NCBI GenBank assembly: GCA_950097015.1
Contig: CATNEN010000038.1
Location: 496,001 to 560,000, forward strand
Reading direction: 5' to 3'
From: Macrostomum hystrix
Lineage: Eukaryota > Animalia > Platyhelminthes
DNA: 64,000 nt
The notes beneath the pieces were generated by a model. It had not been told where the DNA came from and ran no database searches. It was given only the letters and a program-made list of their open reading frames with translations. Position 1 is the first letter of the stretch. Each line of letters opens with the position of its first letter. Of this stretch, positions 1,831 through 39,653 are shown piece after piece. The position numbers were made by a program, and so were the translations under genes.

Positions 1831-2196
1831 GGGGTCGGTGGCAGAGCGGTTCACGCGTTTGCCTCTCGCACCACGGTCCTAAGTTCGATTCCACTGCGAG
1901 GCCACATTTATTTGGGGCGCAGCCGCGGAGATAAGGCTTGAGGGCTTGTCGTGCAATTTACGCCCTTGTGGGCCAACCTCCAAGGCACAGTGAAATGTAC
2001 ACTGCCTGACGATGAGAAAGTCAGGGCAGATGTACACACCTGTGTGAGCATATGCCTGCGTACAGTATCTGTGTGCGTGTGTGCTCAGGAGTTAGCGAAA
2101 TGGGTAGAATTGGCTCCATGCTGGTTGCGGGTTTAGTGTCACTAAATGATGTGCCATTGCCCGCAGCCCTCCTGCAATTATTATTAATATTATTAT
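1831..2196 (+). mobile_element. tRNA-derived SINE
   Basis: A-box-like tggcagagcgg, B-box agttcgattcc (about 1882-1892) and a (tta)n tail. Related partial copies at about 7700-7815 (+, body) and 59199-59258 (-, head). Confidence 0.75.
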
Positions 2197-7024: not shown

Positions 7025-7815
7025 AAATTGTCTGAATATAAATTCATTGAATTTTTCTAGTCGTTCACTGGCAGATTCTCCTACTTCAAGTAGAAATGAA
7101 GGCAAGTGGTTGTATTTTTTTAAGTCACGATTTACAATTTCTCGAATTTGGAATGCGAATATTGACAAATTATTTTCATTAATTTTATTGGAATTTTTTG
7201 TGAAGGTCTCAACTAAAAATTTAATATGAGTTTGACATTGTAATAATTTATTATTTATTCTACAATCAATTTTGCATGTTTAAGTTCTCTGTGTTTCATA
7301 TGCTTGTACCTACTAATCGTATTTTAAATTGCTTTTTTCGTTGTAAAACAGCAATAATTTACACAAAAGTTATATACTTGTTCTGCATTCTGTGGGCTGT
7401 CTTTCAATCACTCTCTTTAGATATTCGTTATTTTAATATTTCGTATTTTTTAAGTAAAATAATAATTATTCGTGTAAGTATAAGTAACTAGTGGTTGTTT
7501 TAATGTGCAAAAACATTTACTTTTTGTTAACTCATTGCACGCAAAAATTGTGTAGTTATTTTTACAGTTTACGAATTGACATGTGCAAAAAATGTTTTAA
7601 CTTAATCAATGTAATACTAGATTGTCATTTGACCTTTTCTTTTATATTTCGGAGCAGAACTGGAGGAGCCTCTCTCACCAAGGCTGCACATTCATTTGCA
7701 GGGGTCCTCGTCACGGAGAGAAGGCTTTGGGTGCTTGTCGTACAATTTTATGTCAGCTCTGTTCACTGTACACTGTCTGAAAATGAGAATGGTGTGCTGG
7801 CTGCGGGTCCTAGTT

Positions 7816-9500
7816 GGGGGCGAACGTAGTATTGAGCCGCGAGGCGCGAAGCGCCGAGCACCGAGGCCCCGGCAGAGGCCGAGGGGCGAAATCGGAGTGA
7901 GCCCCACCTAAGATCCAGCGTACGTACTGAGATAGAAAACACCTCGAAAATCACGCATTTTCAAAGTATATTGGGCGCCATTTGAGACTGCCTCAACCGT
8001 TTGCCTCGCGGGTGGTGTCGTTGGGTAGGTAACTTATAGGGTTATCTGATTTATGGCGGTTGGTTGCCATGTCAACGGAAAACTGCCATTTTTGGAAATC
8101 GATCTTACGCAAACTCATTTCCAGCGCTCATTTTTTCTGGCACGGAGAAAAGTTGAGACACAAAAGTTGCGGGCAGGCCTGGCCCAGGCGAGGTAGGAAA
8201 GCGATTTTTTAATTTCCTCATAGTTTATGGTAAAAGTGCAAAAAACATACTTTTTGGTACTGCTTTTTTGGGTTACATTTTCCAGCGCAGCTCCCCAAGG
8301 GCTGAATCGATTGTCACGCCGGTGGTGTCGTTTTTTCTACTCGGTGAGTTCTTTCCAGCGAGGTGTGAGTCAACGGACTGCAAGTGTACCGCGCGCCTGA
8401 TATCTGATGAAGCAAGTGTAAAATCTGGCGCAGCCAGATTTTACACTTGCGTGCTGCACGATACTGCAGCTGAATGGCAGGTAGTTGCACTGCGCAAGTG
8501 GTGTCAAAAATTCGGCACGGATGCCTGCTACACAACGCTATGCAAGGCGACTCTATACGATGCACGGTTATCAAGCAGTACTTGGAAATGCAGTGCAAAA
8601 CGTGCATTTTTGCCGTTTTCTCGAAAATGCATGCCGACCTTGGTGGAGTCAAAAAAATTTTTTCGAAGACAAACAGTAGGACAGCTTAGCCGCAAGCAAT
8701 GTAGTGTGCACAACATTAGGGCACATGACATACTGAGTCGGCGTTGATAAAAGTACATCGCAAGTGTACTAAAAGTACATAAGTGCACATGCACTTTAGT
8801 GAAAAATTAGTATTTTTCTCCTTTTGACGCGCGCATTTCGCGAAATCCGGCTCCGAATTTGTCGAATGGTGCGTCAATCTACTGGAAATATTGTTTTGCG
8901 TCTAACAAGATATTGCGCGCACCTTTCGGCCCTACCCGGGCTGAGAAAGTCGATCCACCCAGACTAGGGAAAGGTCGGGTTCGGGACCGGTGCAGACCTT
9001 GCTGTGCTCAAACCTACAGCTGGAGGCGAAAAGGGCGTAATTCTCCTTGAGCTTGGTATTGAAAGATGCACATTCCATGTGGGTATATGGGAAAAATACT
9101 GCCGTCGCTACACGTATTACCTGTTAGGATTAGTACCTGAAAATGTAATTATGCACAGCATGTACATTGTGCATATTTGTGTGTACTTTTGTGTATAAGT
9201 CTGCGAATTATTGATGGATTTGAGCGCGGATGGCTTCAATCGACGCGGAATGTTGTCTACATTCCAACGACATGTCACACGGCTAGATTGGTTAACGTGT
9301 GTCGTGTCTGGATCCTATTGAGTACATGAAGGTAAGGGGTACAAATTTTGGACACTATCATTTTTGAAGCATCCGTTATTTGCTATTGAAAGATTTTGCA
9401 AGTTCCGATGATGATAAACAGTATCTGTGGTAGTTAAACTTTTTGTGGTTGCTTCCCGTTTGGCAAGCGGTTTTCATTTTGATGATTAAATCCTAAATGA
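7816..9500. mobile_element. Possible non-autonomous DNA transposon (boundaries uncertain)
   Basis: Abrupt CpG-rich non-coding block starting with gcgaggcgcgaagcgccgagc inside AT-rich DNA. No TIR or TSD confirmed. Confidence 0.3.
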
Positions 9501-10525
9501 TTGCTACTTTTTTAGTTTTTTCAATGATAAACCGACCGCCTTGCAGAAAATGCTTGCGTCGAGATTTTTGAATAGCTTTTATTAAAACAAGTGCATATTC
9601 AGTTTGTGCATTTTTAGTGCATCTAAATGCAGGAAGGAATGTAGCAGTCAGTAGAAATCCCTTTATGTTGTATTCGCTTTTAGCGCACGAGTTTTGTTGA
9701 TTGAACGTTTTATTTCTACTTTGTTGCTGGAACGCGGTCGCCTCGAATTCAAAATCCTATCCCGCAGTGCAATTATTTTTATTTAGTTACTTTTTCATAT
9801 CTGCTAATTGTATCTTTGCTTATTACCCATATTTGATCCTGTACACATTTAAGTAGGGTAATGCTTAACTGCATTAAACAAGGTCACTTTTTTATTGGCA
9901 AAATATGTTCACTCAGATAAATGACAAGTGAAAAGTGGAAAAATCCACCCATTCCATTCATTAATTCCACCCATTCCATTCTTATAATGGCAGCCTGCAA
10001 CACCATGAAAGATGCATCATGCAAGCCGACTATATCTATAAAACTATGATATAAATATATCAACATATTCTGATTTCTACATGTTTGTATCATATAAATA
10101 AAGTGTTCAACTTTTTGCCTTAATGTTTTAAGTTTTAATAGTAATGTATGTTTCCAATTATTCTTTTCTGCATCTTAATGTATGCTGATCAATGGCATAC
10201 ATGTTACTTGTAAGTGTTTGATGTAGATTGTATTTTTATTATTATTTTTCAAATCTTTCGATGTAAATAAACCTTATCAATGAATTATATTAAGGAACTT
10301 ATTTTATTAGTATGTTAAATGTTCTTTTTATCCTTCATGTAATAATTAGTAGTTTTCTTTTAAATTTGTAGTTATAACATTTGTTTTAATTTTCTCCGCC
10401 ACACCAATCTTTTTAGATAAATAGGAGCGATTTTCACGTCATCAAATATAACATTGTCTTTGGCGATAAAAATATTCAACATAAAAAGCCATTTTAACTA
10501 GTGTTTCTGAAATTAATAACTTCGT

Positions 10526-10809
10526 GTTTATTATTTGAACGAGGATTAGAACTGTATTAGTTCGATCCAAATTTGAACTGTACTGCAGTACTAGTAAAAT
10601 AATTGATAAGTTATATCAACGTATTGTTGATTTAGCTAAGACGTATTGTCTTTATTTAGGATATATCAACGTATTGTTGATATAATTAAGGCGTATTGCC
10701 TTACTGTTTAGAGTGTATTACTCAAGACAGATAACTATATTGAAATCATACGTAATGTATGATCAGTAAAGTATAAGTATACAATTCCCGACTGTATTAA
10801 GAAGGAATT
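10526..10809. other. Array of about 8 short hairpins sharing a GTATT loop
   Basis: gaact-GTATT-agttc, atcaac-GTATT-gttgat, aagac-GTATT-gtctt, tatatcaac-GTATT-gttgatata, taaggc-GTATT-gcctta, ctgtttagagt-GTATT-actcaagacag, atcatac-GTAAT-gtatgat. Confidence 0.85.
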
Positions 10810-10842
10810 CCCACTCCTCCAGTCTACTGATCGTGGCTACTG

Positions 10843-10929
10843 GGCAACTTCAATCCACCGCGCAAAGCCCCGGAAGACTGGAATTAGAATATTAGGGAGT
10901 GCCTTACCGCTCGGGCACATTCAGCTACC
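10843..10929 (-). other. Degenerate tRNA-Leu-like sequence (SINE head or tRNA pseudogene)
   Basis: Minus strand GGTAGC..TGCCCGAGCGGTAAGGCAC..TCCAGTCTTCCGGGG..GGTGGATTGAA resembles the tRNA-Leu 5' end, D arm and variable arm. No intact cloverleaf. Confidence 0.5.
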
Positions 10930-12168
10930 ATAGGTAACACGTACTTACTCACGTGAGACCAAAATTACAAAACATAGAAATTAGGGCAAATAAAAACCGC
11001 ACAGCAAGAACGACTGCTACATGTTGCATTTTACTGACTGCTTCTTTGACTGTTTAATGTGTTTGTCTGTGTGTTTTGTATTTTGCTGGAGCATTGCATT
11101 TATGTTGCAACTTGCCTTTGCAACATCGTTTTTCTATATTTTATCTTTGGTTGTACCAATTGCCAAAATTTATAATAAATGGATAACAATGTAAGCAAGT
11201 CAAGTTTATTGTCTGCTCTTTGTTGTTTATTCTGCTCTTTGTTGTTTGTTCTCCGATATATATATCGGAGCGGGAGCTGGGAGAGCGAAGCAGGAAAGCA
11301 GAAAGGCGATACAAAGTCGCTACAAATCTATTGTAAATTTAGGCTGCACCATTACCTTGCCTCTACCCCCACGCTGTTCGCCCCCACGTAAAAGACTGCA
11401 GTCTTCTTACTAACTAGTGTTACCCACGCTAATAACGAGCAAGCCTGTCTGTATACCTATATCCTCTACGTCGCCAAAAACAATACTCGTCATCGCCTAC
11501 TATTACCGTCATTGTCTGAGTGCTACCGCTACACAAATCTTCACCGTGTGTCGTTATTTATTTCACCTGTGTCCACACCGAGAGCGTCTCAGGCGAATAG
11601 TTGCAGACAACAAATTAACTGCGAGTACAATGCCTTCACTGCAAACTACAATACTTCAGATAAGGTTTACACCTTAACAATACCAAAAGCATACAAGTTA
11701 AAAAATCGGTCTTATACTCGTATTACAATTTATTGAACGAAAAAGTTGTTACATATTACACATTTAATGTTTCTCATTAATTGTATTATACATTTAATGT
11801 TTACGTAGAGATAAATAAAGAAAAATTAAAAGGCTCAAGCAATTAACAGCAACATCACTGTCATAATCATAATTTTATTCTTTTATTTGATTCCCTCTGC
11901 CCTGTACCTTTCGTGAGCAATCAATTTAGACTCATATTTTCAACTCTTCTGCACTTCCATGCACAGCAATTTTTGTTAATAAGCATGATTATTATGATTA
12001 TTAATATATTTTGAACAAAAGAGCAATAAGCACCTGTAATGATAGTAAGTACATAACAATAATAACAAGCAATTTCAAAGTCACTTGTTGCGTCCCCACA
12101 GTCCATGGACAGAACGGTCAGTTGCACTTCCGATCCCATTACTTTTATCGTTACATTTTTCTTTGACT

Positions 12169-13078
12169 TTATTTACTCTCCAGACCCACGCTCTTCAGCT
12201 TTCTCTCCAACTCAGCGATTCGCTCGTCCTTGTCCTGGAGTTTACTCTGCATCTGCTCAATCAGCTCGTCCTTGTTAAGGTCCTCCTTGAAGAACTCCAA
12301 CGCAGTTTCCAGGGCCTCCATGGCTTCCTTGTCCAGCTCGATCTGCCCTGCCTTGTCGCTGTTGCTCTTTAGACTTTTGGCTAGCACGCCCAGCTCTTCG
12401 GCGCCACTGACAATTTTTCGGGCCTGCTGTCGCATTTCCATCACGTCGAGGCCCGACTTGACGGCCAAAGCGGCACCCGCAGCAGCTCCAGCGATAGCAG
12501 CTCCATGCAGCAACCCAGCCAGCTCCGCCAGTGAAGAAGCCGAGCACAGCGCAGATCCCGATGCCAACACCTCCAACAGCAGCCTTGTTTCGATTTTTGT
12601 CAGCCTCCCTGTTCTTGGCTTCCGCCCTCTGTCTCTCCTGAGCCTCTAGTACAGTCGCTAGCTGCTGAGCACTTTCCAAGTTGCTCGCAAGGTTGTTGAA
12701 AGCGATAGAAAAGCTCTGCGAGATAGTGTGCATCTTCGTCAGCTTCTCAGATAACTGCTCAATAACTTTGGGTGGGATGCTGCTGTCTTTTATACTGTCA
12801 CGTAGGAACTTGTCGAACTCGATAATTTCTCTCCCGAAGTTCTCAATTTCACTCTCGAGTTTTGCTGATGAGAAGATCACTTCAGTCAGTACTTTCTTCA
12901 GCTCTTCTAGTTTTGAATCGCCAGGAAGATCGATGCTATTTACCATTTCCGCATATTTCTTTGCCTCCTCCGTGACCCTGTAGAGCTCTGTGCTGTTCTG
13001 CCGAATCGTCTTCATCGTCTTGAGGGCATCTCCAAGGCCGCCCAGAACATGACCTATTTTGCCCAGCTTCTCCGCCAT
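12169..13078 (-). CDS. Intronless alpha-helical protein (about 300 aa) with central Gly/Ala-rich hydrophobic hairpin, ApoL/ClyA-HBL pore-forming-toxin-like; frameshift at about 12505
   Basis: ORFs 13078-12275 and 12576-12169 join at ...GFFTGGAGWVAA|GAAIAGAAAGAALAV... The C-terminus is coiled-coil. TATA-like ttataaa at about 13170 and AATAAA signals at about 11875-11888 on the minus strand. Confidence 0.7.
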
Positions 13079-15269
13079 GTTGATGCGACAGCTGACCAGG
13101 AATTAAAGGAGAATGGCTTTCTCGTCCGTGTTGCAGGTTCCAGACCTGTTTGAGTGGTCAGTGATCATTTATAAGCAACCGTGTTTTGGAACAGCTGCAG
13201 CTTATTGGCTGATCCTGCATCGGCACCTGGGTCTCAGCTTGTACATCGCATGGGGGAACTTCGGTTTTGAGAGTGTACAATGAAGGAGAATGGCTAAGTG
13301 CACGAAATGGCAAAGTGCTCATTTGTACGTCCAGAGTAGTGGGGTGACTGGGTAGTCTTTACCGATGGAGCTCGGGACCATTGTACGGCTTGCATAGATA
13401 AGCACATAGTCACCTAATTACTCGCATTTACCCTGCCTTGCATACAGAAAAACCCAGTTGCATATCATTTCTTGGCTCAATAAAGTGCATTAATGTAAAG
13501 AGCCCAAAAACTGAACTTCGGTTTTTGTGCTTCTGTCTGCTAAAATTGCGGGTTTGCACTATTATTGCCAGCATGTGATTTTGAATCAATATAATAAATG
13601 AGAAAAATGAACTCAGTTTAATTACGGACTGAATTCGAGACCCGGAGGAAACAGAACAGGATATAAACACACTTCAAAAGTGAAAGGAAAAACTGAAAGC
13701 ACATGCCGTAATACAAATGTTGTCAATTTGTTATTTAAATGACTTTGAGCGGCAAAAGAGTCGATATTGCAAGACAATTGATGCATTGTCAAAGAATCAG
13801 CAAAAATATTTTATGTCTATGGGCCAAAACTTCCTGCAATGACCTTGTCTTTTTTACTGTGTCTAATTTTTTGAGTCTATGGGCATCCACTGAAATTTAT
13901 CCATGGTATATTCCTGCACTTGTAGACGCACTCGTGTCACCAAAGGATGCGCCAGTGCACACAGCCCCCAGCAAACAATGTTTTTTTTTGTTATATGCAA
14001 AAGTTTCATTCGTCTTTAAGTGCAAATTTCAAACATGTTTTCGTATAAGTTTTTTTCCTTAATTTGCAAGCCAAAAAGCATATATATAAGAGTGACAATC
14101 TGCAAGTTGTAATTAAATATGGAAGTTTTTTATTTGTTTTTTTATTATCTAAAACTGTAGTTTTTTCTCTAAATTAAAGTTTGAGAAATGAAGATAAAAT
14201 ACAAGTAATTAACGTACTCGTGTTTAACAAACTAATTCACAGTTAACAGTAGACAGTTAACAAGGATTCCCCCCCCCTTTGACACATTTTTCGTTCTGCA
14301 CCCGAACGGAGCAACGCAAGCACACGAAACTCAAGAACACGGGCCAACTTTTTGTTGCGCATCTTCTGAAACAATAATCAAGTCGCCAGCTCTTCAGACC
14401 GTCGCGATATTCAATGTTTCTGGCCGAAGGTCCGATTTTTTCTATAAGCGCTAGTATACGAAGTATTTCATACTCGTACAACCCTATAAACTCGTACATG
14501 AATTTGCACTGCGCCTCAGTGCGGCCTTGCCAGGCCATCAAAATTGATCAGCATGTCACCCGAATGTGCCTGCACCATCTCCGTCTTCGGTGGTCACCTA
14601 CCTTTATCTAGACGGACTGCTAGACCTTCAAGGGACTGCAACAGGTGAAACTATAGGCCACACCTAACGCGGATTTCTCCAATTTCACTGTTCAAACCTA
14701 AATATTAGGCGCAGCTCGACCACAGTGCACCATCGCCTAGTCTGTCAACCAATCAACCAGTCACCACCCAACGCTGTTAGCATTCAGGCGCTGCCAAAAC
14801 ATTTTTCAGCGGCAAAATGACTTGGTAGTTCTACTGTTCATGTGAGCGATTGCGACAATACTCACCACTTATTTCTGTGCCTGTCTTGTTAAGGGGTCAG
14901 TCTGGGCTATCAAACCCGTCTGAGTGCATTCCGTCGCCTTGGTAACAGTAAAAAACTCCAGATAAAATGACGAGTTAAGACTTTAAGTTGAGGTTTTCGC
15001 ACTAAATGTCGCACATTATGCGAACTTTGAATTATTCATGGCTTTTATAAGAAATTATTGCGCAGGTGCAATAAAATACAAAACTTGTTTTAACGGGTGC
15101 TCACCTTCACTTAGCATATTATTAGTTTGTTTGAATATATCTGGCTTGTCGAATTAATCTGATGCATAAACTTTGTATCAGAATTTTACAGTATTATTTT
15201 GTGTTTTAAATAATAACACGAATCAACTTAACCTCTTGGAGTGACTTACGGCTCATTTCCTATTCAGTC

Positions 15270-22909: not shown

Positions 22910-25900
22910 ATGTCACTCTTCCAACCTGAGCACTGTCCTACTAATGCAGTAAGTGACAGCATGCAACATGCAAGAGGTGGCTTCAGTCCTTACAGTGCAA
23001 ATGGAGGGTAAGAAATTTGATGGCTTGCTATTAATGGTTCACATCTGATTAGGCCTAGCTTAGCTACCTGGAAAGAAGGACTCTCAAGTTTTAGTTTTGT
23101 TTTTAATTTTGATCTACTAAATATTTTCTGTGTAGCTAATATTAAAAGACTATATCTTTATTATTATGCATAAACAATATTAAGCTATGTATTTTTTGTA
23201 GAAACTATAGTATAGTTTTTATGTTAGCTGTTGCCTGTAAATACTTTTACTGGGTAACAGGACAATTCGGTAACAGACAATTCGGTAACAGACAGTTCGG
23301 TAACACCACAGGACAGTTCGGTAACACCACAGGACAGTTCGGTAACATATCAAGGGACAGTTCGGTAACAATTGATTAAACTGGATCGGAAGGGTTTTTT
23401 GCGAAGTTATTTTATATTTAGTTCGGTAAAGTTACAAAGTAAAATCAAAAGTAAAATTGCATGTTACATATTTCACATTTGGGCGTCAAATAAAAAATAA
23501 AACGTTAAAACTAAAAGCTAAAACTGAAACTGAACTGAAACTAAGACTGAAACTGAAACTAAGACTGAAGTCAAAGAAAAACATGTTACTTAGCGACAAT
23601 GTACCGTGCTGCGGCCCGCAAAATTTGATTTGCCGTTTTCGTCCCAGCCTGATACTCTGCCCAATACTGAAAGATCTTCGCCTCCTTTGACTGATGAGCG
23701 CGTCTCTGATAGCGGCAAAGTCTCTCCTGGGACACCAGCTTCGCCTGGAGAGAGGCCACCCTTGCCTCATTGAAAAGGAGCGCAGCTAGCTTGTAGAAGC
23801 CAAGGTTACCGCTTCGCGCCCTCTGATTGAGTCGATTGTGATAACCTTCCGGGCCATTGTTGGTTCGAATGCTACGGTTGAAAACGCTAACTTCGTCGAG
23901 CTGCCAGACATGACTGTGGATCCACGTGTTAGTGATGTATTCACAGAGTGCGCTCAGCTGCTCATTTTCTACTGCCTGTTGCAACTCCAAGAACTGAGCT
24001 TCCATGCGATTGCCAGGCAGAAAAGGGAGCGCCATTAATTTTTGGCAAAAGGCTCGGACTGTCTCATTGTTAGCATATGCCACTTGTAGGCCCAATGACT
24101 GCACTTGCTGCCAAATGGCTTGGGAGTAGTGGAAGTTGCAACCATGTCGCTTAACTTCCGGAAAAACTGACCTGACAGCTCTCCACATCGCTGCTTCAAA
24201 GTCGAGTCTGATGCTGATGAGCTGGCAGTCAGGAAGCATGTCTTTCAGAGCCTGTAACACTCGCCGGTAGTCCCGCTTGCTCTTGCCAGACATGAGAATG
24301 AATACCAAAGGTATTTGCTTGATGGACTCGTTCCGGCGTACATAGCCATGGAAGATGTAGAGCTGCAGAAATGGCTCCTTCACAACAAAAAATGTTCCGT
24401 CACCATACCACTCTTTACATTGTCCCAGCAGCTATAACTGTACATCGCTTGCAAAGATAAAGTGGCGTCGCCCATTTTCCTCAATGCGGACCTCACTTCA
24501 AAGAAAATTGTCTGGCAGTGCATCCTCGTGAACTTGGAAAAGCAGATCTCGTGGTTCGATGGGGCGCAGTGCAGCTCGCGCTCTATTCCCAGCTTTCGCA
24601 AGCAATTCTAGCTTTGGCAACTGCGGCAAGCCTTGTAACTTGTCTTCATTTTCCAGCATGAGTTGTTCGGCGATTTCAGCTGCTGGCTTGAATATCTCCT
24701 GTCGAGCTTGATCACGCACATCACGAACAATCTCTCTTCGCATCGATGGTTGTCCGACTGGCTGGCAGGTGTGCTCGCTCCTGCCAGAGGTGTATACACC
24801 ATTTGCCTCAATAGCGGAAGCAGCACATTTAGTGTTCGTGTTTCGGATTGTGCATCTCCAGTATGTTCGGTCACCACGACTGAACTGTCGACTGTAACTG
24901 AATCCATCAGAGCGGACCAGAATGTCCTTCCCCTTCTCAGAAGCACGTGGAATGAGAGTGAAGACAATAGGCACTGCTTGATGTGCTATAACCTGTGGTG
25001 GAGCATCTTCATCCATAGAGCTCTCTATATCGGCAGGGTGTTGTGGCTGCAGATCTGGTCGTAGGTCAACTTGAGCGAGCTCTATTTCCTCATCAGAAGA
25101 GCTCTCCATGGGGACATCCTGCTGCTGCTGTTGTTGTTGTTGATGATGATGCAGTTGCTGCAGTTCATGTTGATGCTGATGCGGTTGCTGTTGCTGATGC
25201 TGAGGCTGTGGTTGTGGTTGTGGTTGCCGGCAGTTGTTGCATCTCCATTGAAAGCAATCAAGTTGCTGAAGGGCACGGTACTCCAGCTGGCTGATGCCAC
25301 TGCCACAAGTGCGGTGTTGCCAGCAGTGACACTCATCGCATTGTAGACCTTGTTGTAGCCTACGTATGTCGTTGAAACAAACGACGCAGGCCGCGTGGTT
25401 CATGGTTCAACAATGTTACAATGTTTCTGATTCATGTTGACTGTTGAGGTATTTAATTGTGCTTTGTGACTGTCTACACTGTACTTCCCAACACTGTACT
25501 TGCCAATGCACATTACGTTCTTGCATTAGTCATATTTTAGCCCCATGTTCACCGTGCGGCTGTCCCCACAACCCTATTTTGCTGACCCTCTGCCATCTTG
25601 CATATAATACAATTCTTGTATATTGATATCAATGCTATAATAAATCGTATTTCAGCAGCCAACTAGCACACTTAAGGCCCATTCATACAGTCATCAAGTG
25701 AGGCCAAATTTTGTGTGATCACACAATTTGCACTAATTTTTCATCCCTTTGTACATCCCTTTGAACAAGCTTTTACCCTACTTGCACACTCTAAATGACG
25801 TGTCAGTTTCAGATACATCAGTAACATCAGTCAGTTGTGTCCTAGCAACGATAGTAGATACATTGTTAGAACAAACCTAGATTGTTTTTATTGACTTTCA

Positions 25901-37945: not shown

Positions 37946-39653
37946 TTATCTGCCCCAGCAAGCCAAAACTGTATATTGCAAGCTTCGTGTCTCAGTTATA
38001 TATGTGAGTTGTGTTCAGCCACTCATATTCCCTTGAGTCCTCTTTAGCCCGCAGATCCCACAGACTGTTGAATGCCCGCGGACTAGAGCTTCGATCTGAA
38101 GTGTCTGCGAGGTCGCCCACTTCTGCCTGTCTATTCCCATTACGCTGAGCCTGCAGTCGACGGCTGCCCTACTCAGTTGAGAAGCCTACTCACAACCCTA
38201 CTCACCCCTACAGAGAGGAGGTGACACCGCAACTCAACTTCAATGCGAGACTTTCGCTACAGCTCCTCAATTCACTAATGAGTTTTCTCAATAGGCCTTC
38301 ACGGAAAAGTGAATGCTACGAAGCGCAATAGCTACTCCTGAATTTGGGTCTTTTGATTCTGCTGCTGATGCCGCATGTCTTGATACATGCCAGGGATTCA
38401 AAGAAAGTGACAGAGTCCTGTGATTCTATCCCTTTCTAGGGATTTAAGGAGAAAGATGTGGAGAAAAATTATGTATACAAATTGAGACCAGGCACCACTT
38501 TGACCACTCCCTGGGACCAGTGAGTCCAGGGAGAGAGAGGGACGGGAATTTGAAAATTTGGATGAATGAGGTGGAACAATTTATCAGACCAGTTCAGTCT
38601 TACCTGGAATCTGGAGAACATGCAAGGGTGTCTAGCAAGCTCTGAGCATGTCGCAGCACTGCAGCTCAACGGGGGACAACAGAAGCTTTTTAGTGGGAAC
38701 AGCTTTGTTGAGCTCTAGGATTGGTTTTAGATCAGTTGAGGCTTGGGCATTGCAAGCTTTTACGTTTCTCCCTTGAATTTCGTGTTCGCACAGTTAGGAT
38801 TCTCCCAGTGTGATGGGCCTTGTCCAGCCAATCCGGAGCAGTGCTAGGCCTAGTCTGCTTGCCAGTCACATTCCTGCCGCTGTACATGCAGGCCAACCCT
38901 GCCCACACCTACTAGTTAACCCCGCTAATCTGAAATGTAGCAATGGAAGGGGAGTGACTAGAGAAATAATTTCTTCCCCATCCACCCCACTTCCCTACCT
39001 AAAAATCTCCCATTTTAAAAACGCTGCACCGTGCAAACACACGCAACTGTTCCCATCCGGCCCATTGTGAGAGTTTCTCTGTTCGGCAAATGAAACTGGA
39101 TGACGTCACACTGCAGCAGAGTGACGGCCACAGCGGAACCCAGCCCACAACCATGAGGTCACAACTTGCAGCATTTCAACTTGCGATAGGAACAGAAACT
39201 GCCCCCGTCACGCGGTAGGAAACGCGATTCCCGACCCAAAATTGGTTTGGCGAAGGCGATAAAAGTAGGAAATCGGCCTGCGCGTGGGCGGCAGTTAATC
39301 CGAATGCACTTTTATGGATTTTAGCAGCCGCTAGATGTCTAACCGCCAATGACCATTTTAAAGAGATTTAAGGGGCATAAGGGCATTGGCTACAGTGCTT
39401 TAAAAATTTAGTTCACTTAAAAAATTATTGTTGCATTTTTTTTATTTCTGCTCACCGAAATTTCAGATTTTCCCAGCCTATTTTAAGGGCTCCGAATCGT
39501 GGATCTGGGATTTACTGGGCGTCGGGATTTCCTGACATGATATATTTCTTAGAAAATCCCCATATTTAGTTTTCTCCTACTTAGGGATATGCAATAGGCC
39601 TCGCTATTCCTTAATGCGGCATTTCCCGTAATTTAAGATTTCCCTCTTTAATT

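What the first reader, a model, noticed from the sequence alone, without database searches (positions are those of the whole stretch)
10526..10809. Array of about 8 hairpins with variable stems and an invariant GTATT loop
Seen directly: loops at 10554, 10621, 10643, 10671, 10693, 10715 and 10794 (GTATT), plus 10752 (GTAAT) and 10531 (TTATT). Nearly all are closed by a 5-11-bp stem of different sequence; the 10794 copy pairs only in its outer stem. One pair shows a compensatory change (aagac/gtctt versus aaggc/gcctt). This is a repeat of structure rather than of sequence, so repeat finders would miss it. Inference: it is a multivalent binding platform for an RNA- or ssDNA-binding protein, or a set of HUH-endonuclease-type origins, since GTGTATTAC in one hairpin resembles the TAGTATTAC stem-loop nonamer of CRESS DNA viruses. 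The mismatches I noted are T-G on the plus strand, which favours plus-strand folding.
Basis: partly seen in the sequence, partly recalled or inferred. Interest (0 to 1): 0.8.

Follow-up and report, generated by a model that had tools for sequence, protein, structure and literature searches.

The report
Same-loop hairpin array in flatworm repeat
A repeated, non-coding element in a flatworm genome carries seven short hairpins whose stems differ while the five-base loop stays almost fixed, next to a likely tRNA-derived block; the array likely acts as a multi-site protein dock on the element's RNA, but strand, expression and partner are untested.

Summary
The array is real. Six GTATT loops and one GTAAT loop sit on 4-9-bp Watson-Crick stems. 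They are the only 6 of 69 plus-strand GTATT sites in the window with such stems, and no shuffle comes close. The 10531 and 10794 copies are weak. The array is not unique. It lies in a non-coding interspersed repeat of a Macrostomum-type flatworm, at roughly 20-80 times single-copy depth in two runs. The local copy looks like an 803-bp insertion (10219-11021) with a 4-bp duplication. Other copies change the number of hairpin units and show paired stem changes; only the fourth loop base varies. Beside the array is a more conserved block that resembles tRNA-Leu in sequence on the minus strand (moderate support; no cloverleaf fold). The HUH/CRESS-origin reading fails its tests, and the strand is not settled. 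Best reading (40%): a multivalent protein-binding RNA module carried by a retroposon-like element. Rivals: Roquin-like decay hairpins, ssDNA sites, neutral palindrome amplification. No Rfam family, and no paper in the searches run.

The parts
10219..11021 (.). Likely extent of the local insertion (803 bp); starts TG, ends CA, flanked by TGTT at 10215-10218 and 11022-11025
   Evidence: Joint 10214->11022 with 4 shared letters in X3 (depth 371) and X2 (depth 3); an X2 contig diverges exactly behind 11021; junction letters. Insertion versus microhomology deletion is inferred.
10233..10249 (-). A-rich stretch on the minus strand, a possible retroposon tail; homology of two diverged relatives stops at 10249
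   Evidence: Sequence; X3 record 20 and X7 record 26 begin at 10249
10520..10544 (.). Weak hairpin around the 10531 TTATT; doubtful member
10543..10568 (.). Hairpin, loop GTATT at 10554, 5-bp stem plus outer stem
10610..10636 (.). Hairpin, loop 10621, 6-bp stem, T-T mismatch, then outer pairs; other copies have a 5' arm that repairs the mismatch
   Evidence: X3 loose end before 10615
10638..10652 (.). Hairpin, loop 10643, 5-bp stem; other copies appear to have 6- and 7-bp versions
   Evidence: insertions behind 10637 and 10651 with equal depth
10662..10684 (.). Hairpin, loop 10671, 9-bp stem (second copy of the 50-bp unit)
10687..10703 (.). Hairpin, loop 10693, 6-bp stem, A-T to G-C change relative to 10643
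10711..10723 (.). Hairpin, loop 10715, 4-bp stem plus outer stem; fourth loop base is G in one X2 contig
   Evidence: T10718G
10745..10763 (.). Hairpin, loop GTAAT at 10752, 7-bp stem
10783..10809 (.). Degenerate hairpin around the 10794 GTATT (outer stem only); replaced or deleted in other copies
   Evidence: joints 10720->10825 and 10767->10827
10834..10929 (-). Block resembling tRNA-Leu(AAG) in sequence, best in the D-arm; no cloverleaf fold; the most widely shared part of the family
   Evidence: X10 (organism D) matches 10842-10931
10930..10960 (.). Shared motif next to the tRNA-like block, with a CACGT/ACGTG hairpin (10938-10955); related letters in four runs
   Evidence: loose ends behind 10930-10933 in X2, X3, X7, X10
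10989..10994 (+). AATAAA 27 nt before the right end (fits the solo-LTR reading of the carrier)
   Evidence: sequence

Best explanation
The array is one module of a non-coding, multi-copy repeat in a flatworm genome and likely works as RNA, each short stem presenting the same five-base loop as a docking site for one protein, so that a transcript of the element would bind several copies at once. Shown: the hairpins, the repeat family, the variable unit number, the paired stem changes, the near-fixed loop (G-T-A-N-T on plus, A-N-U-A-C on minus) and the linked conserved block. Inferred: the carrier is a retroposon-like element read on the minus strand, running from a longer 5' region (cut off at 11021 in this copy) through the tRNA-Leu-related block and the hairpin array to an A-rich tail near 10240. 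Also inferred: the protein is the mobilising machinery (reverse transcriptase or nucleic-acid chaperone of a partner element) or a host protein that the element recruits or soaks up. Unequal recombination of the 50-bp two-hairpin unit would tune the number of sites.
For: Loops far more conserved than stems across five independent hairpin types: 46 of 50 versus 14 of 50. All loops point the same way. Multi-copy: X2 depth about 6 on unique flanks versus 111-476 over 10596-11000; X3 about 70-84 versus 1011-2165 (summed contig depth, a rough guide only). More units in other copies: loose ends before 10612 and 10615 and behind 10703 are further unit sequence. Paired changes: one in the window (10643 versus 10693). 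In other copies, +A behind 10637 and +TTA behind 10651 have identical depth in each of two runs (131 in X2, 382.8 in X3), which reads as one A-T pair added on both arms relative to the +TA form. An X3 5' arm turns the T-T mismatch of the 10621 stem into A-T where the 10671 stem has T-A. Both loop deviations hit base 4 (10752; T10718G). Hairpins stay linked to the conserved block in variant contigs (joints 10720->10825, 10767->10827). A tRNA-Leu(AAG) gene aligned end to end scores highest here among 4258 window tiles, and 0 of 20000 shuffles reach it. Longer relatives continue past 11021 and 10933. Precedent for a retroposon protein reading a pentaloop with an exposed fourth base: UnaL2 GGAUA (PMC1636434, passages).
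Against: No binding, expression or strand data. The strand test is neutral. The tRNA likeness is not secure: the tRNAs were fetched with a window-derived seed, the part outside the seed is not significant (201 and 262 of 2000 shuffles reach it), a profile of 35 tRNA-Leu gives E 0.74, a covariance model and Rfam find nothing, and a real SINE-like head at 1801-1960 scores almost as high (47.4 versus 49.0). Depth is lowest near the supposed tail (10219-10590), the opposite of a plain 5'-truncated retroposon unless that part has diverged below the 80% cut. TG...CA ends, the 4-bp duplication and AATAAA at 10989 fit a plus-strand solo LTR as well. Paired changes are phased by equal depth, not read from whole sequences, and number only about three.
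Confidence: 0.4

Rival explanations
1. The hairpins act on plus-strand transcripts as tandem decay elements: G-U closes a U-A-N triloop that a host Roquin- or Regnase-type protein binds, damping RNAs of the element (then likely a solo LTR, 10219-11021) or of genes into which it inserts.
For: On plus, all loops read G[UAN]U and the only variable base is the third of the triloop. This matches the relaxed CDE rule of YRN triloops with a preference for U at position 3, and tandem CDEs repress more than single ones (PMC6294493, passages). ViennaRNA closes G-U in the 10554 and 10715 hairpins. TG...CA ends, 4-bp duplication and AATAAA near the right end.
Against: In the same paper a G-U or U-G closing pair weakened repression relative to any Watson-Crick pair, so an invariant G-U is unexpected for a Roquin target. 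The one well-supported contig that runs past 11021 has no TGG-type primer site (primer-site rule recalled). The copy is 3.5 kb past the guanylate cyclase stop (7024).
Confidence: 0.2
2. The hairpins are single-stranded DNA or cruciform sites for a HUH endonuclease (Helitron or CRESS type).
For: DNA folding is as significant as RNA folding on both strands. Stems are nearly all Watson-Crick. A neighbouring repeat ends near a CTAG with a palindrome upstream (11388-11417).
Against: Only 1 of 8 loops continues as TATTAC and its AC is in the stem. No Pfam family in six read-through frames of 7800-11900. The insertion has TG...CA ends with a 4-bp duplication, not TC...CTRR without one (Helitron rule recalled). 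The array is internal, not terminal. Viral contigs gave 0, 0 and 2 chance hits for three family patterns.
Confidence: 0.12
3. No function: one ancestral hairpin was amplified in tandem inside a repeat, and template switching during replication keeps the arms complementary.
For: The 50-bp unit is a recent tandem duplicate and varies in number among copies. The genome is very rich in tandem repeats (53 rows). Arm-to-arm correction can mimic compensatory change (established knowledge). Organism D keeps the adjacent block but no contig matches the hairpins at 80%.
Against: Correction protects pairing, not the unpaired centre, yet loops are 46 of 50 identical while arms are near random at 14 of 50. 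No loop is inverted (0 of 46 minus-strand GTATT with a stem).
Confidence: 0.18
4. A family of Pol III non-coding RNA genes (tRNA-like head with an external promoter, followed by the hairpin array) that serves the host, for example as a protein sponge, rather than a mobile element.
For: Sequence next to the tRNA-like start is shared among copies and with organism D, as an upstream promoter would be. On minus only one T4 run (10596-10599) lies between 10929 and the T5 runs at 10483-10487 and 10468-10472.
Against: The B-box position departs from the recalled consensus at two key bases. The plus strand has no T4 run in that span either. The local copy sits at an apparent insertion junction, and some relatives share sequence well past 11021.
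Confidence: 0.1

Closest known systems
3'-tail stem-loop of LINE UnaL2 and its partner SINEs (PMC1636434, passages read)
   Same: Retroposon-borne hairpin with a five-base loop starting with G, fourth base exposed, read by the element's protein
   Different: One hairpin with loop GGAUA directly before a terminal UGUAA repeat; here seven hairpins, a different loop, about 300 nt from the nearest end
tRNA-derived SINEs (definition recalled)
   Same: Multi-copy, non-coding, tRNA-related block without the fold, possible A-rich tail, short duplication
   Different: Sequence upstream of the tRNA-like block is shared among copies; B box is poor; the body is a same-loop hairpin array
Roquin constitutive decay elements, tandem type as in UCP3 and TM2D3 (PMC6294493, passages read)
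   Same: Short AU-rich stems of free sequence; YRN triloop if G-U closes; tandem copies
   Different: Closing pair always G-U, which was suboptimal in that study; seven copies; carried by a repeat; strand unknown
CsrB/RsmZ sponge RNAs of bacteria and the METTL16-bound hairpins of the MAT2A 3' UTR (both recalled, no call)
   Same: Many hairpins with unrelated stems and one loop as multivalent protein sites
   Different: Different loop, host and genomic setting; analogy of architecture only
CRESS-DNA virus origin and Helitron ends
   Same: DNA hairpins; one stem-loop contains TATTAC
   Different: Nonamer not in the loop, no Rep, wrong termini, target duplication present

Membership tests
CRESS/HUH replication origin | Nonamer NANTATTAC displayed in the loop of a stem-loop | tested here: not met
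   Loops are 5 nt; 1 of 8 continues TATTAC, with AC paired
CRESS/HUH replication origin | Rep/HUH gene next to the origin | tested here: not met
   0 Pfam families in 6 read-through frames of 7800-11900; none among 11 window ORFs scanned; the rest of the window was not scanned
Helitron | 5' TC, 3' CTRR, no target duplication (recalled) | tested here: not met
   Inferred ends TG...CA with TGTT on both sides
tRNA-derived SINE | tRNA-related head | tested here: inconclusive
   Top of 4258 tiles, 0 of 20000 shuffles, but seed-biased; tail alone p about 0.10-0.13; HMM E 0.74; no CM hit
tRNA-derived SINE | Element starts at the head; upstream flanks unrelated among copies | tested here: not met
   Related letters behind 10930-10933 in X2, X3, X7, X10; an X2 contig matches to 11021
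tRNA-derived SINE | Intact A and B boxes, Pol III transcription | tested here: inconclusive
   D-arm/A-box region matches tRNA-Leu; T-arm/B-box region differs at several positions (alignments); transcription not testable
tRNA-derived SINE | 3' A-rich or simple-repeat tail followed by a target duplication | tested here: inconclusive
   A-rich 10233-10249 on minus, but 14 nt separate it from the 4-bp duplication
Solo LTR of an LTR retrotransposon | TG...CA ends with 4-6-bp target duplication | tested here: met
   10219-11021, TGTT/TGTT, empty-site-like joint; about 1 in 200 by chance per joint, 11 joints listed
Solo LTR of an LTR retrotransposon | Longer copies show a primer-binding site after the LTR or a purine tract before it, and a second LTR | tested here: not met
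   The one listed loose end behind 11021 shows neither; full copies unavailable; 0 hits for 6 motifs in 5 supplements of PMC12801592 (cells over 400 characters are cut there)
Roquin CDE | YRN triloop on a short stem | tested here: inconclusive
   Met only on plus and only if G-U closes; predicted in 2 of 8 hairpins
Roquin CDE | Located in an mRNA 3' UTR and repressive through Roquin | not testable with these tools
   No stranded reads or reporter data
L2-type 3'-tail stem-loop | Single GGAUA-type hairpin just before the terminal repeat | tested here: not met
   Different loop, seven copies, internal position
Any Rfam family | Match to a covariance model | tested here: not met
   0 at gathering score in 64 kb; only chance-level hits, E 1.4 and 7.3

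The most novel reading that the evidence does not exclude
A new class of animal structured RNA: a tRNA-derived domain fused to an expandable array of same-loop hairpins, spread by a flatworm mobile element and acting like a bacterial CsrB-type sponge that titrates a host silencing or RNA-decay protein, or seeds assembly of the element's particle, with unit number as the tuning knob.
Probability: 0.2. Interest if true: 0.8.

Novelty: new variant of a known kind. Interest (0 to 1): 0.5.

Why it matters
Mobile elements are known to carry single protein-recognition hairpins. An expandable array in which five unrelated stems hold one loop points to a multivalent, loop-specific protein and gives a ready bait to find it. 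If the partner is a host decay or silencing factor, this would be a transposon-borne RNA decoy in an animal. If it is the element's own protein, the array defines a packaging or cis-preference signal. The many natural copies in a lab-tractable genus make covariation and reporter tests cheap.

Tried and rejected
No whole genome is held, so family copies could be seen only through two contig lays (7 of the 11 listed runs laid: X2 twice, X3, X5, X7, X9, X10, X11). Their tables are cut (176-225 substitution rows and most pieces not shown), so no formal covariation statistic was possible. Expression: no RNA holder listed. X5 and X7 are of unrecorded kind; their cover looks transcriptome-like (X5 has one contig over 11891-13090; X7 has a 1517-nt contig holding 10669-10720 and 10825-10933), but contigs show neither strand nor level, so this is not used as evidence. 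Organism D has no cover on the hairpins at 80% likeness; this does not show absence. Relatives elsewhere: 0 matches in viral contigs for two patterns; 2 for a third, single 4-bp stems with no array; 0 in metagenomes for the D-arm 20-mer; none in phages and one 32-bp chance hit in plasmids; no second copy in the window; no look-alikes among earlier findings. Genome contigs was not scanned. Viral tRNAs as comparators: part outside the seed not significant (230 of 500 shuffles). A ribozyme or other known RNA: none in Rfam; the conserved block does not fold better than shuffles (z -1.12 and -0.40). Coding remnants: none. A longer LTR 9640-11021 (10-bp terminal inverted repeat, purine run before it) was considered, but contigs run across both points without the expected boundaries. 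3' UTR of the neighbouring minus-strand gene: unlikely, as poly(A) signals lie at 11874-11887, but not excluded. Literature: 10 full-text searches found no description of this element; three exact motifs occur in 0 papers. The library lacks most subscription papers, and repeat libraries such as Repbase and Dfam were not searchable. Papers seen: PMC12801592 (passages, supplement search), PMC1636434 and PMC6294493 (passages); others as listings only. The bacterial promoter scan was uninformative. The protein atlas gave no result.

Full report
Setting. The window is animal DNA, rich in minisatellites, with short-intron genes. Named relatives of a guanylate cyclase exon are mostly molluscs, flatworms and annelids, and all 8 relatives of the protein encoded at 12278-13078 (-) are Macrostomum lignano proteins at 25-44% identity. 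The host is therefore a Macrostomum-type flatworm. The finding lies in non-coding DNA between the guanylate cyclase gene (+, last frame ends 7024) and that gene. Six read-through frames of 7800-11900 match no Pfam family. No whole genome is held.

Observation. All listed loops are present. Six GTATT and one GTAAT sit on 4-9-bp Watson-Crick stems; 10531 and 10794 are weak. Only 6 of 69 plus-strand and 0 of 46 minus-strand GTATT in the window have a 4-bp stem, all six in this cluster, and no other same-loop cluster exists in 64 kb. Shuffles give at most 2 against 6 observed (5000 shuffles). After removing the duplicated unit and loosening the rule they give at most 3 against 5. Both strands fold far better than shuffles as RNA and as DNA (z -4.5 to -5.5), so folding does not name the strand or the molecule. 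Two hairpin pairs are an 85% identical 50-bp duplicate, leaving five independent stem types. Among these, arms share 14 of 50 positions and loops 46 of 50, and the closing pair is always pyrimidine-purine.

The array belongs to a repeat family. Eleven runs hold the stretch or part of it; seven were laid. In X2, unique flanks have depth about 6 while 10596-11000 has 111-476; in X3 the figures are about 70-84 and 1011-2165. Summed contig depth is only a rough guide, but it implies tens of copies. Loose ends before 10612 and 10615 and behind 10703 are further unit sequence, so other copies have more hairpin units. Joints such as 10413->10652, 10536->10653, 10720->10825 and 10767->10827 show copies in which parts of the array are missing or replaced. 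Diverged single-copy relatives exist (X3 record 22: 42 differences over 10653-10870).

Variation respects the structure, as far as it can be seen. In the window, one A-T pair of the 10643 stem is G-C in the 10693 stem. In other copies, +A behind 10637 and +TTA behind 10651 have the same depth in each of two runs (131 in X2, 382.8 in X3). Against the +TA form (149 in X2) this reads as one A-T pair added on both arms. An X3 arm variant replaces the T-T mismatch of the 10621 stem with A-T where the 10671 stem has T-A; the register of the outer pairs is uncertain by one base. Both loop deviations fall on base 4 (A at 10752, G at 10718 in one X2 contig). Two other arm variants (behind 10703 and 10720) show one arm only and cannot be scored. 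The tables are cut, so this is about three paired events, not a covariation statistic.

Ends of the local copy. A joint 10214->11022 with four shared letters (X3 depth 371, X2 depth 3) looks like an empty site, and an X2 contig leaves the window sequence exactly behind 11021. That defines 10219-11021, TG...CA, between two TGTT. This fits a solo LTR on plus (AATAAA at 10989), but the contig that continues past 11021 shows no primer site. It also fits a 5'-truncated retroposon on minus, with an A-rich stretch at 10233-10249 where two relatives stop matching, although depth is low near that end. A microhomology deletion in other copies is not excluded, since the joint 9665->11375 also shares TGTT. 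The carrier's class is unresolved.

The adjacent block. 10842-10931 is matched by contigs of a further organism (X10, organism D), which has no cover on the hairpins at 80%. On minus, 10929-10834 resembles tRNA-Leu. A pattern built from it pulled 127 metagenome loci, 116 with an ARAGORN tRNA over the motif, 120 of 123 genes being Leu(AAG) or Leu(TAG). One such gene aligned end to end scores best at this block among 4258 tiles, and 0 of 20000 shuffles reach it. Against this, the comparators were seed-selected, the part outside the seed is not significant (201 and 262 of 2000), a 35-sequence profile gives E 0.74, and the covariance model and Rfam give nothing. I put tRNA origin at about 60%, with the fold lost. 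Sequence upstream of it is shared among copies, so this is not an ordinary SINE start.

Mechanism. Fixed loops on interchangeable stems, all in one orientation, are what selection for a loop-reading protein leaves. Arm-to-arm correction would keep the pairing but not the loop (inference). A retroposon protein reading a pentaloop with an exposed fourth base is documented for UnaL2 (PMC1636434, passages). I therefore favour a multivalent RNA dock on the element's transcript (40%). On plus, the loops also read as G-U-closed UAN triloops, close to the relaxed Roquin CDE rule, but G-U closure weakened repression in PMC6294493 (passages), so I give that 20%. Neutral amplification gets 18%, HUH sites 12% and a host Pol III RNA family 10%. 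The HUH idea fails on nonamer position, missing Rep and element ends.

Novelty. No Rfam family, no relatives in viral, metagenome, phage or plasmid collections, and no description in ten literature searches or in five supplements of a Macrostomum LTR paper (long cells are cut there). Repeat libraries were not searchable, so the carrier may be catalogued under an anonymous name. Same-loop arrays noted by earlier agents are bacterial or phage and unrelated in sequence (unchecked notes). Verdict: real, probably selected, a new variant of a transposon-borne structured RNA module; partner, strand and expression are open. Interest 0.5.

Noticed in passing
window 12169-13078 (-): Gene of a Macrostomum-only coiled-coil family with a hydrophobic Gly/Ala stretch (relatives mostly 281-341 aa). 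Here it is split into two overlapping frames (267 aa and 158 aa) with a frame change near 12500. X2 and X5 contigs carry the same letters (0 differences); an X9 contig has 4 gaps. No Pfam family.
   Followed up: partly
window 1837-2070 (+) and about 7640-7790: Typical tRNA-derived SINE-like element with clear A- and B-box-like motifs at 1837-1893; a headless second copy appears to lie near 7640-7790 (X11 loose ends).
   Followed up: no
window 14280-14840: Very high-copy repeat (depth above 900 in X2 against about 6) with many internal deletions, held by all four runs of that lay.
   Followed up: no
window 11268-11420: Repeat block ending at CTAGT (11413-11417) after a palindrome. X3 and X10 copies carry 34 more bases at 11373 that would make a long hairpin, and X10 copies end at 11417-11420. 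Helitron-like end, untested.
   Followed up: partly
window 9300-9700 and 11375-11590: Multi-copy blocks joined to each other in many copies (joint 9665->11375, depth 90 in X2 and 882 in X3), with an element end near 11590. 9640-9649 is a perfect inverted repeat of 11012-11021.
   Followed up: partly
window 23586-25403 (-): Mutator-type transposase remnants: FLYWCH and MULE domains in two ORFs.
   Followed up: no
window 39160-39245 (-): ARAGORN calls a tRNA-Gly(ACC) that Rfam does not support; probably spurious.
   Followed up: partly
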